64,000 bases of DNA. It comes from an uncultured bacterium (GTDB lineage Bacteria > Omnitrophota > Omnitrophia > Omnitrophales > Aquincolibacteriaceae). The stretch is taken from positions 15,985 through 79,984 of the forward strand of contig CAZLTL010000012.1 in NCBI GenBank assembly GCA_964562525.1, given 5' to 3'. The number at the start of each line of letters is the position of its first letter. Within the stretch, counting starts at the first letter, position 1. The translations under genes were made by a program, and so were the position numbers. This document shows, one piece after another, positions 1 to 16,375 of this stretch. A model generated the notes under the pieces. It was not told where the DNA came from and did not search any database. It saw nothing but the letters and a program-made list of their open reading frames with translations.

Positions 1-764
1 TGATACCAACGGATGCCGTTACGATAATCATTCGGAAACTTATGATGATAGCTGTGATAACCCTCACCGTTTGTCAAAATGGCTCCAAGCCAATGATCGC
101 GTGCGGATTCTTTTTTGTTCCACGCGTTGCTTCCAATCATATGCGCGTAAGAATTAATAAAAAAAGCGGAGTTCATCACAAGAAACATGCGCAGACAAAC
201 GGACATTAAAAAAGCTCCGAGAAGATGACCTGTGGCCCAGCCGATTGCAAGCGGAACAAAAATACCGGCTGTGACCGACCACAAATCAATGTACTTATGC
301 TGATGCATAACCAATTTGCTTTGCATCAAATCTTTCGCGTTGTCCCAGTTCACGGCGTGTTTATAAAAAATAATCCAGCCGACATGGCAATACCAAAATC
401 CGCGCAAAGAATTATGCGGATCGAGATTCGTATCCGTAAACTGATGATGCTGCCGATGCTGAGAAGACCATTTGAGAGCGGACTCTTCATAAGTCGCGGC
501 ACCGAAAAAAAGCAGCCAAAAGCGCACAAAGTTGTTTGCCTTAAATGTCACATGCGAAAAATGACGATGATAGCCGACCGTAATCGCAAAGCTGGTGGCA
601 AAAAAATAAAAAATAAAAAGCAGAATTTCAGACAGAGCTAACCCGTTGTAATAGATATAGATAGGTGTCCCGAAGACGCCGCATGAAATCAGCACCGTAA
701 AAAGCACCACGCCGGCCCATTTTGTAACCCTTTTTGGGGGTCCGTACTCGCCCATAAACCGCAT
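1..764 (-). CDS. acyl-CoA/acyl-lipid delta-9 fatty-acid desaturase, partial (C-terminal part beyond the window edge)
   Basis: Not in the ORF track because there is no stop codon in the window. Minus-strand translation from the ATG at 762-764 reads MRFMGEYGPPKRV... and contains the three histidine boxes GYHRHFSH, HRQHHQFTD..DPHN and HSYHHKFP that define the stearoyl-CoA desaturase family. The + strand ORF 225..641 is its low-complexity shadow. Confidence 0.8.
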   Translation of the reverse strand, partial: MRFMGEYGPPKRVTKWAGVVLFTVLISCGVFGTPIYIYYNGLALSEILLFIFYFFATSFAITVGYHRHFSHVTFKANNFVRFWLLFFGAATYEESALKWSSQHRQHHQFTDTNLDPHNSLRGFWYCHVGWIIFYKHAVNWDNAKDLMQSKLVMHQHKYIDLWSVTAGIFVPLAIGWATGHLLGAFLMSVCLRMFLVMNSAFFINSYAHMIGSNAWNKKESARDHWLGAILTNGEGYHSYHHKFPNDYRNGIRWY

Positions 765-839: not shown

Positions 840-3455
840 TTAACGGGCTTTGCTTTTTAGATGCCGTCCGCCTTGATATCGACGGAAAGCTTTTTCGATT
901 TCAACCGCAATAAAAACGGTAGAAGCAATCATCAAAACCACCCCCAATTCTTTTAAGCTCAAGGGCGAAGTTTCAAAAACTTGGTTTAAGAAAGGAACAT
1001 AAAGCGTCGCGAGCTGAAGCGCAAAGGTGACAGCGACCGCGCCCAACAAAGGCAAATTAGAAAAAATTCCCTGATTAAATAGCGACTCGGTATCGGAGCG
1101 AATCGCGATCACGTGCGCGAGCTGACAAAGACAAAGCACGGTAAAAACAATCGACCGCCAATTTTCATATTCATGCGCAAGGAGCCAAGCTTGACTTCCC
1201 AAAGTCAGCGCCGCCATCAAAGCGCCCATTACAATCACATGCCAGCCGAGTCCGCGCGCAAAAATACCTTCATCCGGCTTGCGCGGCAAACGGCGCATTG
1301 CATTGGCTTCCCCCAGTTCTGCAACCAAAGCCAACCCCGGCAAACCATCCGTCAGCAAATTGATCCATAAAATTTGAATCGGAATAAAAGGAATCGGAAG
1401 ACCGATCAGCGGCGCGATAAAAATAATACACACCTCCGCTGAGTTGGTCGTAACGGCATATTTAATAAACCGCCGCATATTGTCATAAATCTTACGGCCT
1501 TCTTCCACGGCATGCACAATCGTCGCGAAGTTATCATCCAAAAGCACCATCGAGCTGGCTTCTTTGGCGACATCTGTCCCTGTTACACCCATCGCAACCC
1601 CAATGTCCGCGCGCTTTAGCGCCGGTGCGTCATTCACCCCGTCGCCGGTCATTGCGACAAATTCTCCTTGCGATTGCAAAGCCTCAATTATTTTTAATTT
1701 TTGATCGGGTGAAACCCGCGCGTAAACCCGAATATTTTTAACGCGCCGGGCAAACTCCTCCGTTGAAATCTGCGACAACTCGGGACCGGCCATCACCTCA
1801 TCCCCCTCCGCTAAAATTCCAAGACGCGCTGCGATTGTTTTAGCCGTGCTGGGATGATCTCCGGTAATCATAACCGGAACAATTCCTGCCGTTTTACAAG
1901 CCGCAACCGCCGTCTTGGCTTCTTCGCGTGGCGGATCAAAAATTCCGACTAATCCCAAAAAAACAAGATTCGATTCAACGTTTTGAATTAATTTTAAATC
2001 AGGTAAGGCATCCCAGGTTCTCATCCCAAGCGCCAAAACCCGCAATCCATCCTCCGCCATTTTTTCAGAAATAGGATTAAGCAGGCTTTGGCTCACAAGC
2101 GGCCCTGGATTGGATTTTTCAATAATCATCTCAGCCGCGCCTTTGGTGTAGGAAATAATTTTTCCATCCGCGGCTTTGTGAAAGGTGGTCATACATTTGC
2201 GCTCAGAATCGAAAGGCAGCTCCGCAATGCGGGGAAATTTTTTATCCACCTCTGTTTTTTCAAACCCGCCGGCGCGCGCGGCTTCAAACAAAGCCACCTC
2301 CGTCGGATCTCCTAAAACCGCGCCTTTCTCTTGCTCGACCGCATCATTACAAAGTGCCATGGCCGTCAGAAAATCCGCAGAAAGTCCGGCAACACTTCCG
2401 CCTTTTATCAGTTTTCCTTCCGCGTAAAACTCTTCGGCCCGCATGCGGTTGAGTGTCAGCGTCCCCGTCTTATCCGTGCAGATATAAGTCACTGATCCCA
2501 GCGTTTCAACCGCAGGCAATTTTTTAACCAAAGCTTTTTTGCTAACCAAGCGTTTGGCGCCAAGGGCCAATGAAATCGTAATAACGGCAGGCAGTGACTC
2601 GGGAATCGCCGCGACAGCCAAACTAATCGCGGTCATCAGCATCAGAAAAAATTCTTCGCCGCGCAGCATTCCCGTAATAAAAACAACGGCACAAATCACC
2701 ATGGCCGCCCATGACAAGCTTTTCCCGAGACGGGTTAATCTTTTCTGAAGCGGTGTCGGCATTCTTTCGGTCGATCCCAGCGATGCCGCAATTTTGCCAA
2801 ACTCCGTCTTCATCCCCGTGTCCGCGACAACGCCCAATCCGCGGCCATAAGTCACGGTCGTGCCCTTGTAAGCCATGTTCTTTCTGTCACCAATCGGAAT
2901 CTCGCCCTCAGCGTGAATCGATTCTGTTTTCTTTTCGACGGGCATCGATTCGCCCGTCAGCGCGGACTCATCCGCTTTCAACTGCGCCACCTCCATCAGC
3001 CGAAGATCCGCCGGAACAATGCGTCCGGCTTCAAGCATCACAATATCGCCCGGAACAAGTTCCGCGGCGGGAATCACTTTTTTTTGATTGGCGCGCAAAA
3101 CATCCGCCGTGGGTGATGACATGGCTTTCAATGCTTCCATTGCACGTTCGGCGCGATACTCTTGAACAAAGCCGATCACCGCATTTAAAACAACGATAAT
3201 CAAAATAACGATGGAATCTTTGTAATGCCCAAGAAATGCGGATAAAAGAGCCGCGCCTAAAAGCACGAGAATCATAAAGTCCGTAAACTGATCAAAAAAC
3301 ATCCGCAAGGGGCTGTGTTTTTTCCCTGAGAGCAGGGAGTTTGATCCGTGGATTTTGGTGCGGCGGACAACCTCGTCGGGATGAAGCCCTTGGGGCGTCG
3401 CTTCCAAATGCGAGAGAACTTCTTGGTGAGTTGCGGAATGCCAGCCTTGTTTCAT
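840..3455 (-). CDS. cation-transporting P-type ATPase (P2-type, Ca2+/Mg2+ family)
   Basis: 871 aa. Has the phosphorylation motif ICTDKTGTLT, the hinge motif TGDGVNDAPAL, a PESLP (PEGL-like) TM4 motif, and 10-TM topology. Confidence 0.9.
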   Translation of the reverse strand: MKQGWHSATHQEVLSHLEATPQGLHPDEVVRRTKIHGSNSLLSGKKHSPLRMFFDQFTDFMILVLLGAALLSAFLGHYKDSIVILIIVVLNAVIGFVQEYRAERAMEALKAMSSPTADVLRANQKKVIPAAELVPGDIVMLEAGRIVPADLRLMEVAQLKADESALTGESMPVEKKTESIHAEGEIPIGDRKNMAYKGTTVTYGRGLGVVADTGMKTEFGKIAASLGSTERMPTPLQKRLTRLGKSLSWAAMVICAVVFITGMLRGEEFFLMLMTAISLAVAAIPESLPAVITISLALGAKRLVSKKALVKKLPAVETLGSVTYICTDKTGTLTLNRMRAEEFYAEGKLIKGGSVAGLSADFLTAMALCNDAVEQEKGAVLGDPTEVALFEAARAGGFEKTEVDKKFPRIAELPFDSERKCMTTFHKAADGKIISYTKGAAEMIIEKSNPGPLVSQSLLNPISEKMAEDGLRVLALGMRTWDALPDLKLIQNVESNLVFLGLVGIFDPPREEAKTAVAACKTAGIVPVMITGDHPSTAKTIAARLGILAEGDEVMAGPELSQISTEEFARRVKNIRVYARVSPDQKLKIIEALQSQGEFVAMTGDGVNDAPALKRADIGVAMGVTGTDVAKEASSMVLLDDNFATIVHAVEEGRKIYDNMRRFIKYAVTTNSAEVCIIFIAPLIGLPIPFIPIQILWINLLTDGLPGLALVAELGEANAMRRLPRKPDEGIFARGLGWHVIVMGALMAALTLGSQAWLLAHEYENWRSIVFTVLCLCQLAHVIAIRSDTESLFNQGIFSNLPLLGAVAVTFALQLATLYVPFLNQVFETSPLSLKELGVVLMIASTVFIAVEIEKAFRRYQGGRHLKSKAR

Positions 3456-3509
3456 AACCCCTCCGTAAGCCTGCGTTAAACCGATCCGCGGCCGGATGAT
3501 CGGGTTAGT

Positions 3510-15627: not shown

Positions 15628-15726
15628 TCGTCTCGCTTCGCTCCCACTTGGGTTTAGGACAGAATGAAAAAAGCCCCGAGGATAAACCTCGAGGCTTCTT
15701 TTCATATGCTCCCCCGCGTGGGATCC
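15628..15726 (-). repeat. tandem partial duplicate of the tRNA-Asn 3' end plus its downstream flank and terminator (period about 187 bp)
   Basis: The unit cgtctcgcttcgNtNccacNttgg ... aaaaaagcc-hairpin-tttt ... atgctcccccgcgtgggatc occurs at 15628-15726 and again at 15815-15905. The second copy is fused to the intact tRNA. The first copy contains the terminator hairpin GCCTCGAGG..CCTCGGGGC followed by T6 on the minus strand. Confidence 0.65.
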
Positions 15727-15843: not shown

Positions 15844-15877
15844 AAATAAAAAAGCCGCAGGTATAAATACCTACGGC
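15844..15877 (-). terminator. rho-independent terminator of the tRNA-Asn gene
   Basis: Minus strand reads GCCGTAGGTATTTATACCTGCGGC followed by TTTTTTTATTTT, immediately 3' of the tRNA. Confidence 0.7.
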
Positions 15878-15888
15878 CTTTTTTAATG

Positions 15889-16163
15889 CTCCCCCGCGTG
15901 GGATCGAACCACGGACACGGTGATTACTTTCTGACTTCAGTTGCCTGAAGAGTCGGACTTTATCTTTACCCATCTGTTTCTAGATTAGGGTAGTGGGTGT
16001 AGAGTCTCTGCACTTGCCCGTTCGTTTTCACGAACTGCTAGCTCAGGATTGCCCTATTACTAGGGTTTCCCTGAATTAGCCCACTTATTCACTCACACAT
16101 TACTGCGTGAGGCTGCTAATTAAAGTACACAGTCACCTGCTCTACCAGCTGAGCTACAGGGGA
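15889..16163 (-). tRNA. tRNA-Asn(GUU) interrupted in the anticodon loop by a 202-nt group I intron
   Basis: The 5' exon (16163..16129) reads UCCCCUG-UA-GCUC-AGCUGGUA-GAGC-A-GGUGA-CUGU. The 3' exon (15926..15889) reads UAA-UCACC-GUGUC-CGUGG-UUCGAUC-CCACG-CGGGGGA-G. Spliced, these give a canonical cloverleaf: 7-bp acceptor stem with U1-A72 and G73, 8-nt D-loop, 5-bp anticodon stem GGUGA/UCACC, loop CUGUUAA, 5-nt variable loop, and T-loop UUCGAUC. It is near-identical in layout to E. coli tRNA-Asn. Confidence 0.8.
15927..16128 (-). ncRNA. group I (self-splicing) intron, trnL(UAA)-intron-like core
   Basis: It is inserted after U35. The 5' exon ends in U and the intron ends in G (..CAGAAAG|UAA). 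P1 can pair exon CUGU with intron GCAG, and P10 can pair exon UAAU with intron AUUA just upstream. The core segment AUUCAGGGAAACCCUAGUAAUAGGGCAAUCCUGAGCUAGCAG closely matches the conserved region UUCAGAGAAACCCUGGAAUUAAAAAUGGGCAAUCCUGAGCCAA of cyanobacterial/chloroplast trnL introns. It contains no ORF. Confidence 0.7.
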
Positions 16164-16375
16164 ATAAAATTTTCTTCGAAATTTTATTCAAAGAATCTGT
16201 TTTATTTTGCTTTGTTTCAACAAGCGAAACAAAGCAGCTGATATTAATCCAAATTTTAAAGAACAATTCGCTTCTCAGGAAGCGTCATTATAAGAAACTC
16301 GCCTTATCGGTCAACAGCCTTTTCAACAACCTAAAACCTCTCAAAAATGCTTAGCCGCGAGGCGTGTCAAGCAAC

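What the first reader, a model, noticed from the sequence alone, without database searches (positions are those of the whole stretch)
15889..16163. tRNA-Asn(GUU) gene split by a self-splicing-type group I intron in the anticodon loop
The two exon halves are separated by 202 nt. Spliced, they form a textbook tRNA-Asn (U1-A72, G73, anticodon loop CUGUUAA), with the intron sitting after U35. Three group I hallmarks are present: the exon-terminal U can pair with an intron G in a P1 helix (CUGU/GCAG); the intron ends in omega-G; and the internal sequence AUUCAGGGAAACCCUAGUAAUAGGGCAAUCCUGAGC is close to the conserved P4-P6/P7 region of cyanobacterial/plastid trnL(UAA) introns. Bacterial tRNA group I introns are known mainly in tRNA-Leu(UAA), fMet, Ile(CAU) and Arg(CCU). 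I do not recall one at position 35/36 of a tRNA-Asn, so this may be a new insertion site or lineage of the IC3 intron family. It has no homing-endonuclease ORF.
Basis: partly seen in the sequence, partly recalled or inferred. Interest (0 to 1): 0.8.

Follow-up and report, generated by a model that had tools for sequence, protein, structure and literature searches.

The report
Group I intron splitting a tRNA-Asn gene
A tRNA-Asn gene in an uncultured Omnitrophota bacterium is interrupted in its anticodon by a small, intact-looking self-splicing group I intron; this is real, but it belongs to an intron class described in 2020 and 2026 that is common in environmental genomes.

Summary
On the minus strand, 16163..15889 holds a tRNA-Asn(GUU) gene split after U35 by a 202-nt group I intron. 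Rfam RF00028 scores it 82.7 bits (E 1.6e-19). ARAGORN in intron mode calls Asn(gtt) with the intron at 35/36.

Three results settle it:
- Sister Omnitrophota genomes (GltD 92-98% identical) carry an uninterrupted tRNA-Asn at the same gltBD-linked locus. It matches the predicted spliced product at 73 of 73 bases.
- Two other relatives keep a diverged copy of the intron at that locus.
- In 36 related introns, 90% of proposed pairs form, against 33-47% in slid controls. P2, P3, P5, P6, P8 and P9 show compensatory changes, and the window keeps the conserved core.

The novelty claim fails. tRNA-Asn 35/36 introns were catalogued by Williams (2020, "Asn.4Ug"). Nakagawa et al. (2026) showed that two 35/36 introns (one tRNA-Asn, one tRNA-Asp) self-splice in vitro. 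My two truncated scans found over 100 more across many phyla.

What is modestly new:
- the host phylum;
- a compact, IC3-like core without P7.1/P7.2, whereas 25 of 28 published 35/36 introns are IA;
- patchy presence and absence among close relatives.

Verdict: new member of a known kind, with low to moderate interest.

The parts
16129..16163 (-). tRNA-Asn 5' exon (tRNA positions 1-35, ending C32 U33 G34 U35)
   Evidence: ARAGORN in intron mode. Identical to the first 35 nt of the intron-less orthologues L242, L245, L247 and L248.
15927..16128 (-). Group I intron, 202 nt, no ORF. Intron position i corresponds to window coordinate 16129-i.
   Evidence: Rfam RF00028 82.7 bits, E 1.6e-19. MFE z-score -4.84. 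70-79% BLAST identity, mostly over nearly the full length, to more than 40 other tRNA-Asn introns. Absent exactly at these boundaries in sister genomes.
15889..15926 (-). tRNA-Asn 3' exon (U36 to discriminator G73). CCA is not encoded; the next bases are CAT.
16111..16120 (-). Internal guide sequence (intron 9-18). AUUA (9-12) pairs with the 3' exon UAAU to form P10. GCAGCC (13-18) pairs with the 5' exon GACUGU to form P1, with U35.G13 as the wobble and A31xC17 as a mismatch.
   Evidence: Read from the sequence. In alignment A1, P1 is 97.7% paired. The P10 base opposite tRNA position 39 is A-U in four sequences including the window and G-C in 19.
16092..16110 (-). P2 hairpin (intron 19-24 / 31-36, loop AGUAAU)
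   Evidence: All 6 pairs show changes on both sides across 36 sequences; 95.4% paired. Reproduced by the MFE fold.
16080..16084 (-). P3 5' strand (GUGGG, intron 45-49)
   Evidence: Pairs with 15993-15997. 100% paired, with 2 of 5 pairs changed on both sides; the window's U-A is one of the compensated variants.
16043..16074 (-). P4-J4/5-P5(GUAA loop)-J5/4-P4' (intron 55-86).
   Evidence: P4 is 100% paired. P5 is 88% paired, with 4 of 5 pairs covarying. Rfam alignment.
16016..16038 (-). P6/P6a hairpin (intron 91-113)
   Evidence: All 7 pairs change on both sides, with 78% paired in a region of variable length. MFE fold.
16003..16010 (-). P7 5' strand within the invariant GUGCAGAGACU (intron 119-126). 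P7 normally holds the guanosine-binding site.
   Evidence: Invariant in 36 of 36 sequences. Pairs with 15954-15959 at 95.8%. The role as G-binding site is inferred from established group I structure.
15993..15997 (-). P3 3' strand (CCCAC, intron 132-136). Only 5 nt (CUACA) separate it from P7, so there is no P7.1/P7.2.
   Evidence: The Nitrospirota 'IA1' Asn introns carry about 40 extra nt at this point.
15967..15992 (-). P8 hairpin (intron 137-162)
   Evidence: The proximal 5 pairs are 78-100% paired and covary (for example C-G 20, U-A 16). In L121 the distal stem AUCU/AGAU has become AUCC/GGAU.
15954..15966 (-). J8/7 and P7 3' strand (AAGAUAAAGUCCG, intron 163-175)
   Evidence: Almost invariant across the family. 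Matches the Rfam consensus AAGAUAUAGUC.
15935..15950 (-). P9 hairpin with GCAA (GNRA) tetraloop (intron 179-194)
   Evidence: 100% paired, with 5 of 6 pairs changed on both sides.
15927..15927 (-). Omega-G, the last intron nucleotide
   Evidence: G in all 36 aligned family members. Its position is fixed by the intron-less allele.
16287..16314 (-). Promoter-like site TTGACC-16 nt-TATAAT, about 125 nt upstream of the tRNA
   Evidence: 11 of 12 consensus matches. The same TTGAC...TATAAT block is conserved upstream of the tRNA in L121, L242 and L245. This is a consensus match only, not shown to be active.
15848..15883 (-). Terminator-like hairpin plus T-run directly after the tRNA
   Evidence: 16-pair stem followed by TTTTTT.

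Best explanation
This is a functional tRNA-Asn(GUU) gene of an uncultured Omnitrophota bacterium, interrupted between anticodon positions 35 and 36 by a compact, ORF-less group I ribozyme of 202 nt.

Likely mechanism:
1. The gene is probably transcribed from its own promoter-like site to its own terminator-like hairpin.
2. [quoted passage not shown]
3. The P3-P9 core folds, including the P3/P7 pseudoknot.
4. An exogenous guanosine bound in P7 attacks after U35.
5. Omega-G202 then takes the G site, and the freed U35 3'-OH attacks after G202. This ligates the exons into a 73-nt tRNA-Asn, which still needs CCA addition.

Shown here: the boundaries, the structure, its conservation and covariation, and the identity of the ligated product with a natural intron-less allele.
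Inferred: catalysis itself. This rests on two relatives at the same insertion site that self-splice in vitro (Nakagawa 2026) and on general group I chemistry.

Evolution: the intron belongs to the large tRNA-Asn 35/36 family. Longer members carry an HNH homing-endonuclease ORF in the P1 loop. This copy has no ORF. It appears to be inherited vertically in its clade and is absent from some close relatives, most simply through precise loss.
For: - Rfam RF00028 at 82.7 bits, E 1.6e-19, full-length model match.
- ARAGORN intron mode calls tRNA-Asn(gtt) with a 202-nt intron at 35-36.
- The intron-less tRNA-Asn at the orthologous gltB-gltD-tRNA locus in sister genomes is 73/73 identical to the predicted spliced product. 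This holds for L242-244 and L245-247 (GltD 98% aa identity). L248 (92%) is also uninterrupted and, read by eye, has the same sequence.
- A homologous intron sits at the same locus in L121 (231 nt, 79% identity, compensatory changes in P2 and P8) and in L249.
- Covariation in 36 introns: 90.3% of cells paired against 33-47% in slid controls, 34 of 60 pairs changed on both sides, and 0 of 500 shuffles reached the observed score.
- The window deviates at only 1 of 85 columns that are at least 90% conserved, and that position is a compensated P3 pair.
- P10 covaries with tRNA position 39.
- The MFE fold reproduces P2, P3, P4, P5, P6a, P8 and P9, with z = -4.84.
- Promoter-like and terminator-like sites flank the gene, and the promoter block is conserved in all alleles.
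- HNH-like ORFs occur in about 35-40 longer family members.
Against: - There are no expression or splicing data for this organism.
- P1 is short in this copy: 4 contiguous pairs, then an A31xC17 mismatch, because this tRNA has A31-U39 and the guide sequence did not compensate (helix 1).
- L2 is a hexaloop rather than a GNRA tetraloop, so one tertiary contact typical of IC3 introns may be missing.
- Only 64 kb of the genome is visible, so I cannot tell whether this is the only tRNA-Asn gene or whether splicing is therefore essential.
- The introns tested in vitro by Nakagawa et al. are IA-type Patescibacteria introns, not this compact form.
Confidence: 0.88

Rival explanations
1. Splicing-dead relic: the intron has lost activity, the split gene is a pseudogene, and the cell uses another tRNA-Asn gene elsewhere in the genome.
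For: The genome beyond the 64-kb window cannot be inspected. P1 contains an A-C mismatch. Close relatives do well with an intron-less allele.
Against: The window matches the family consensus at 84 of 85 highly conserved columns, and the one exception is compensated. All helices are intact. The exons are 100% identical to functional-looking orthologues. The intron has persisted, with compensatory substitutions, in lineages whose GltD has diverged to 88%. That pattern indicates purifying selection on the fold.
Confidence: 0.05
2. Protein-assisted rather than autonomous splicing: the ribozyme core is real but needs a host or intron-family protein (a chaperone or maturase-like factor) to fold in vivo.
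For: The P1 is minimal and L2 is not a GNRA loop, so stabilising contacts may be missing. Many group I introns depend on proteins in vivo (established knowledge).
Against: No intron ORF is present and I noticed no obvious candidate factor in the adjacent genes I looked at. Similarly small bacterial tRNA introns, and the two tested 35/36 introns, self-splice in vitro without protein. The predicted fold is very stable: -65 kcal/mol, z = -4.84.
Confidence: 0.06
3. Different boundaries or a different tRNA identity, for example a tRNA-Thr with the intron at 33/34. ARAGORN and tFind often report this for members of the family.
For: ARAGORN labelled 73 of the roughly 100 metagenomic intron-bearing tRNAs as Thr(cgt) or Thr(tgt). 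The same mislabelling is documented by Nakagawa et al..
Against: For this copy the shifted alternative would need an intron ending in A and would give anticodon AGU. ARAGORN itself prefers Asn at 35/36. The natural intron-less allele reads ...GACTGTTAATCACC... exactly. P1 and P10 align the exons at 35/36.
Confidence: 0.01

Closest known systems
tRNA-Asn(GUU) group I introns at position 35/36 ('Asn.4Ug' of Williams 2020; Nakagawa et al. 2026, mSystems, PMC13011429)
   Same: - Same host gene, same insertion site, U-1 and omega-G, and the same GCAG guide sequence.
- The 5' part (P1-P4) is clearly homologous to the Nitrospirota examples in their Table S5.
- Longer relatives carry the same HNH ORF family.
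- Standard annotation misses or mislabels the gene.
   Different: - Published cases are mostly Patescibacteria, and 25 of 28 at 35/36 are classed IA. The Nitrospirota examples I could read have a P7.1/P7.2 insert of about 40 nt between P7 and P3'.
- This copy has only 5 nt there and an IC3-like compact core.
- The host is Omnitrophota. The single Omnitrophota genome I could see in the readable part of their Table S5 carried an fMet intron.
- Splicing of this compact form has not been tested.
Cyanobacterial/plastid tRNA-Leu(UAA) IC3 intron (e.g. Nostoc PCC 7120)
   Same: - Same helix inventory: P1-P10, with no P5abc and no P7.1/7.2.
- About 70% identity over 114 nt spanning P5' to P9, including GUGCAGAGACUC, CUACCCUAA and GGGUAAAGA-A-AGUCC.
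   Different: The insertion site is 34/35 of tRNA-Leu and the guide sequence differs. Those introns are longer (224-249 nt) with larger P6 and P9 regions. No shared 5' part was found.
Azoarcus tRNA-Ile(CAU) IC3 intron (205 nt by my recollection; cited from established knowledge, with PMC13168695 listed but not read)
   Same: A very small (about 200 nt) ORF-less bacterial tRNA anticodon-loop intron with a minimal P2-P9 core and a GNRA L9 loop.
   Different: The insertion site is 36/37 of tRNA-Ile, the sequence lineage differs, and L2 there is a tetraloop. I did not align the Azoarcus sequence here.

Membership tests
Group I intron (Rfam RF00028) | Covariance-model match above the curated gathering score | tested here: met
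   82.7 bits against a gathering score of 50, E 1.6e-19, model positions 1-253 of 253.
Group I intron (Rfam RF00028) | 5' splice site after a U that forms a U.G wobble in P1 with the internal guide sequence | tested here: met
   U35.G13. This pair is U-G in 36 of 36 aligned relatives.
Group I intron (Rfam RF00028) | Terminal omega-G and a P10 pairing that aligns the 3' exon | tested here: met
   G202 is G in all 36 aligned relatives. P10 is AUUA/UAAU, and it covaries with tRNA position 39.
Group I intron (Rfam RF00028) | Conserved P3-P9 core with the P3/P7 pseudoknot, supported by covariation | tested here: met
   90.3% paired against 33-47% in slid controls, and 34 of 60 pairs changed on both sides. 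P7 never varies, so it gives no covariation evidence, but it is 95.8% paired.
Group I intron (Rfam RF00028) | Guanosine-dependent self-splicing activity | not testable with these tools
   Shown in vitro only for two Patescibacteria introns at 35/36, one in tRNA-Asn and one in tRNA-Asp (PMC13011429).
tRNA-Asn(GUU) gene | Ligated exons form a canonical cloverleaf with anticodon GUU and Asn-type features (U1-A72, G73) | tested here: met
   ARAGORN on the spliced sequence. 73/73 identity with intron-less orthologues that Rfam RF00005 scores at 61.7 bits.
tRNA-Asn 35/36 intron family (Asn.4Ug) | Insertion between nucleotides 35 and 36 of tRNA-Asn, with U-1 and omega-G | tested here: met
tRNA-Asn 35/36 intron family (Asn.4Ug) | Sequence homology to other members of the family | tested here: met
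   BLAST identity of 70-79%, over nearly the full length for more than 40 members. The published Nitrospirota members share the 5' part.
Subgroup IC3 | Architecture: P2 present; no P2.1, P5abc or P7.1/P7.2; GNRA loop on P9 | tested here: met
   Helix inventory. Only 5 nt lie between P7 and P3'. L9 is GCAA.
Subgroup IC3 | Assignment by subgroup-specific covariance models or by phylogeny with reference IC3 introns | not tested
   No subgroup models were available. Pairwise comparison gives about 70% identity over 114 nt to tRNA-Leu IC3 introns, but the 5' part resembles Asn introns labelled IA1. Membership of the IC3 lineage, as opposed to the architecture, therefore stays open.
Mobile (homing) group I intron | Intron-encoded homing endonuclease | tested here: not met
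   The 202-nt intron has no ORF. Relatives of 510-610 nt carry an HNH-like ORF in the P1 loop.

The most novel reading that the evidence does not exclude
The window's intron may represent an undescribed compact lineage of the tRNA-Asn 35/36 family. This lineage would have an IC3-type architecture and differ from the IA-labelled Asn introns by a P7.1/P7.2 insertion or deletion. It would share their HNH homing endonuclease. It would be abundant in Omnitrophota and in environmental metagenomes. It would also be repeatedly lost, or gained, with single-nucleotide precision among genomes whose GltD is 92-98% identical. If so, it links the IA and IC3 structural classes within one homologous family and offers a natural system for studying precise intron loss in bacteria.
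Probability: 0.45. Interest if true: 0.4.

Novelty: new member of a known kind. Interest (0 to 1): 0.3.

Why it matters
The practical value is in annotation. Default tRNA finders miss this gene entirely, and they mislabel most of its relatives as tRNA-Thr. Omnitrophota and similar MAGs can therefore appear to lack tRNA-Asn, and genome-completeness estimates suffer.

The biological value is modest.
- It adds a phylum and a compact structural form to a recently described intron class.
- The intron-plus and intron-minus alleles at one orthologous locus are a clean natural experiment on intron loss or gain.

It does not change what is known about group I introns or tRNA biology.

Tried and rejected
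- ARAGORN in default mode found no tRNA in the window. Intron mode run in a script was needed.
- A BLAST search of the region against phage genomes gave only short matches to tRNA-Asn exons or generic group I core segments. Nothing informative came of it.
- Exact-sequence look-ups of the window's GltD and of its 100%-identical cluster representative P0001 found no contig. The host was instead inferred from cluster members named Candidatus Omnitrophota and from relatives.
- Searching the stored part of the supplementary tables of PMC13011429 for this exact intron or exon sequence found nothing. The file is truncated after the first Patescibacteria row, so absence there means little.
- My genome contigs pattern was too loose.
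- I considered whether the 20-nt second copy of the tRNA 3' end marks the arrival of the intron-bearing allele on an integrated element. I rejected this because the intron-less sister L242 has the same two-module layout.
- The alternative Thr boundary was rejected (see rival explanations).
- More distant GltD relatives (76% identity; L250, L251) have lost the gltD-tRNA-Asn synteny and gave no information.

Full report
**What is in the sequence**

The feature lies on the minus strand. Reading 16163 down to 15889 gives three parts:
- a 35-nt 5' exon, TCCCCTGTAGCTCAGCTGGTAGAGCAGGTGACTGT;
- a 202-nt insert, from GTACTTTAATTAGCAGCC to GTCAGAAAG;
- a 38-nt 3' exon, TAATCACCGTGTCCGTGGTTCGATCCCACGCGGGGGAG.

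ARAGORN in default mode reports no tRNA anywhere in the 64-kb window. With introns allowed it reports tRNA-Asn(gtt) with a 202-nt intron at 35-36. It gives the same cloverleaf for the joined exons.

A scan of the whole window against Rfam returns one hit above threshold. It is RF00028, the group I catalytic intron, at 16138..15934 (-), scoring 82.7 bits with E 1.6e-19 over the full length of the model.

**Anatomy**

Intron position i corresponds to window coordinate 16129-i.

| Element | Intron positions | Notes |
|---|---|---|
| P1 | exon GACUGU with GCAGCC (13-18) | U35.G13 wobble; A31xC17 mismatch |
| P10 | 3' exon UAAU with AUUA (9-12) | directly adjacent to P1 in the guide sequence |
| P2 | 19-24 / 31-36 | loop AGUAAU |
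| P3 | 45-49 / 132-136 | |
| P4 | 55-60 / 81-86 | |
| P5 | 64-68 / 73-77 | GUAA loop |
| P6/P6a | 91-113 | |
| P7 | 119-126 / 170-175 | lies in the invariant GUGCAGAGACU and AAGUCC |
| P8 | 137-162 | |
| P9 | 179-184 / 189-194 | GCAA loop |
| omega-G | 202 | |

The helix assignments were checked. Only five nucleotides separate P7 from the 3' strand of P3, so there is no P7.1/P7.2. There is also no P5abc and no P2.1. This is the compact inventory typical of IC3 introns.

An unconstrained MFE fold reproduces P2, P3, P4, P5, P6a, P8 and P9. Its energy is -65.4 kcal/mol, which is 4.8 standard deviations below shuffled sequences.

A promoter-like site (TTGACC-16 nt-TATAAT, 16314..16287) lies upstream of the gene. 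A terminator-like hairpin with a T-run (15883..15848) lies directly after it. CCA is not encoded.

**Host and the decisive comparison**

The tRNA sits directly downstream of gltB and gltD, which encode glutamate synthase. The closest named GltD relatives, including members of the same 90%-identity cluster, are from Candidatus Omnitrophota MAGs.

I fetched the orthologous locus from relatives:

| Locus | GltD identity to window | tRNA-Asn downstream of gltD |
|---|---|---|
| L242-L244 (e.g. GCA_002344825.1) | 98% | uninterrupted |
| L245-L247 (e.g. GCA_003535755.1) | 98% | uninterrupted |
| L249 | 94% | intron present (contig ends inside it) |
| L248 | 92% | uninterrupted |
| L121 (GCA_043732705.1) | 88% | 231-nt intron, identical exons |

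In L242, L245 and L247 the uninterrupted gene is identical at 73 of 73 bases to the exons joined exactly as predicted. L248 is also uninterrupted and reads the same by eye. This fixes both boundaries to the nucleotide, and no shifted alternative gives the same product.

The L121 intron is 79% identical by BLAST. It has enlarged P5 and P6 and compensatory changes in P2 and P8. The L249 intron has an L121-like P6. The promoter block is conserved in all alleles.

Intron divergence (79%) is close to gltD nucleotide divergence (81%) between the window and L121. The simplest history is therefore vertical inheritance with precise loss in some sublineages. Repeated gain is not excluded.

**The wider family**

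The genome scan for tRNA-Asn-like 5' halves followed by a non-T base gave at least 27 complete tRNA-Asn(GUU) genes:
- All have a U|...G insert at 35/36, from 211 to 561 nt long.
- The MAGs are labelled Omnitrophota, Nitrospirota, Planctomycetia, Delta- and Gammaproteobacteria, Methylomirabilota, Patescibacteria and others.

The metagenome scan for the compact core signature GTGCAGAGACTnTAYACC...AnAGTCC gave at least 77 tRNA-Asn 35/36 introns. ARAGORN labels most of them Thr(cgt) or Thr(tgt) at 33/34. This is the two-base-shift error described by Nakagawa et al..

The window's intron aligns at 70-79% identity, mostly over nearly its full length, with more than 40 of these introns.

About 35-40 members of 510-610 nt carry an ORF of roughly 80-130 aa in the P1 loop. 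Its motif is ...CxxCGY...EFHH...CANCHRE.H. The match to Pfam HNH is weak (E 5e-4 to 4e-3, below the gathering score). The ORF is 66% identical between a compact-core host (L196) and an IA-like host (L016). The two core types therefore belong to one homologous family.

**Covariation**

I made a MAFFT alignment of 36 ORF-less compact introns with short exon flanks. It was not fitted to any structure. I scored it against my helix assignment for the window.

- 90.3% of cells form standard pairs, against 33-47% when partners are slid by 1-3 columns.
- 34 of 60 pairs show changes on both sides.
- None of 500 shuffles reaches the observed covariation score.
- P2, P5, P6, P8 and P9 covary strongly. 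P3 shows two compensated pairs. P4 and P7 are almost invariant.
- The P10 base opposite tRNA position 39 is A-U in four sequences with a U39 tRNA, including the window, and G-C in 19 of the others.
- The window departs from the consensus at only 1 of 85 columns that are at least 90% conserved. That position is a compensated P3 pair.

The structure was derived from one of the aligned sequences, which favours it somewhat over the slid controls. The margin and the number of double changes are too large for that to explain the result. The ribozyme fold is under selection, and this copy looks intact.

**Comparison with what is known**

- Williams (2020) extended the four classical bacterial tRNA intron classes to 21. 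Nakagawa et al. cite the class 'Asn.4Ug' from that work.
- Nakagawa et al. (2026) describe tRNA-Asn and tRNA-Asp 35/36 introns. They show precise in-vitro self-splicing that an omega-G to C mutation abolishes. They found 28 such introns in 4,934 complete genomes: 19 in Patescibacteria, 3 each in Cyanobacteriota and Nitrospirota, and 1 each in three other phyla. Twenty-five of the 28 were classed IA. HNH genes were seen only in the Patescibacteria copies.

The insertion site is therefore not new.

Against reference sequences from their Table S5:
- The window's core (P5' to P9) is about 70% identical over 114 nt to cyanobacterial tRNA-Leu IC3 introns.
- Its 5' part (P1-P4) resembles the Nitrospirota Asn introns labelled IA1. 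Those carry an extra 40 nt or so between P7 and P3'.

I could not run subgroup models, so I leave membership of the IC3 lineage open.

A full-text search found no paper linking Omnitrophota with tRNA group I introns beyond an incidental mention. The one Omnitrophota genome in the readable part of Table S5 carried an fMet intron.

**Verdict**

The finding is a real and almost certainly functional group I intron in tRNA-Asn. It is a new member of a published class. What it adds is a new host phylum, a compact core and a clear presence/absence polymorphism.

Two questions remain open. Catalysis by this particular form is untested. Whether this is the cell's only tRNA-Asn gene is unknown.

Noticed in passing
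window 15660-15726 (-), compared with 15848-15906 (-): A second, partial copy of the tRNA-Asn 3' end (GATCCCACGCGGGGGAGCAT, 15726..15707) with its own terminator hairpin lies 180 nt downstream of the real one. The tRNA-end plus terminator plus flank module is tandemly duplicated at about 80-89% identity (repeat finder families D1, D2 and D4). The intron-less sister L242 has the same two-module layout. This looks like an old att-site footprint of integration at the tRNA 3' end and is not linked to the intron.
   Followed up: partly
L245 4531-6622 and L246 (sister Omnitrophota genomes): In L245 a large serine recombinase (Resolvase, Recombinase and Zn_ribbon_recom domains) sits directly after the intron-less tRNA-Asn. 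An HTH_17 excisionase-like gene and a 901-aa ORF follow in both L245 and L246. The tRNA-Asn 3' end seems to be an integration hotspot for mobile elements in this clade.
   Followed up: no
L248 4142-4405: An 87-aa GIY-YIG domain ORF is inserted between gltD and the intron-less tRNA-Asn. It is flanked by repeats that resemble the tRNA 5' end (TTATTCCCCTGT...). It may be a free-standing selfish nuclease.
   Followed up: no
L016, L028, L032, L065, L099, L111, L119 (genome-contig loci): tRNA-Asn 35/36 introns of about 550 nt carrying an HNH-like ORF or its remnant occur in MAGs labelled Nitrospirota, Delta- and Gammaproteobacteria and Omnitrophota. Among complete genomes, Nakagawa et al. found endonuclease-bearing 35/36 introns only in Patescibacteria.
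   Followed up: partly
L108 (contig CAYIBB010000024.1, labelled Woesearchaeota), about 60-650 (-): A tRNA-Asn-like gene with G1-C72 carries a 511-nt HNH-bearing group I intron at 35/36 (Rfam 97.2 bits). The same 8.9-kb contig encodes MCM with an archaeal winged helix, TBP and a Pno1-like KH protein, so it appears to be archaeal. All 39 archaeal group I introns reported by Nawrocki et al. 2018 were in rRNA genes. A group I intron in an archaeal tRNA gene would be worth a proper look. L005 (labelled Pacearchaeota) also has an 83-bit hit, but its neighbouring genes are ambiguous.
   Followed up: partly
L130 and L223 (metagenome loci): The same compact core, in both cases 202 nt long, interrupts a tRNA-Tyr(GUA) at 35/36 (L130; 75% identity to the window over 104 nt) and a tRNA-Met(CAU) at 36/37 (L223). 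This suggests transposition of the family between tRNA genes.
   Followed up: partly
L214 5533-5835: The P1 loop of this ORF-less 286-nt intron still reads ...ttatgtgcaaattgccatagaaaaattcatgcc..., which translates to LCANCHRKIHA. This is a decayed remnant of the HNH gene and fits a cycle of endonuclease gain and loss in the family.
   Followed up: no
L249 about 3400-3470: Just upstream of the intron-containing tRNA-Asn lies an inverted copy of the tRNA 5' end (cagctgagctacagggga). Its meaning is unknown.
   Followed up: no
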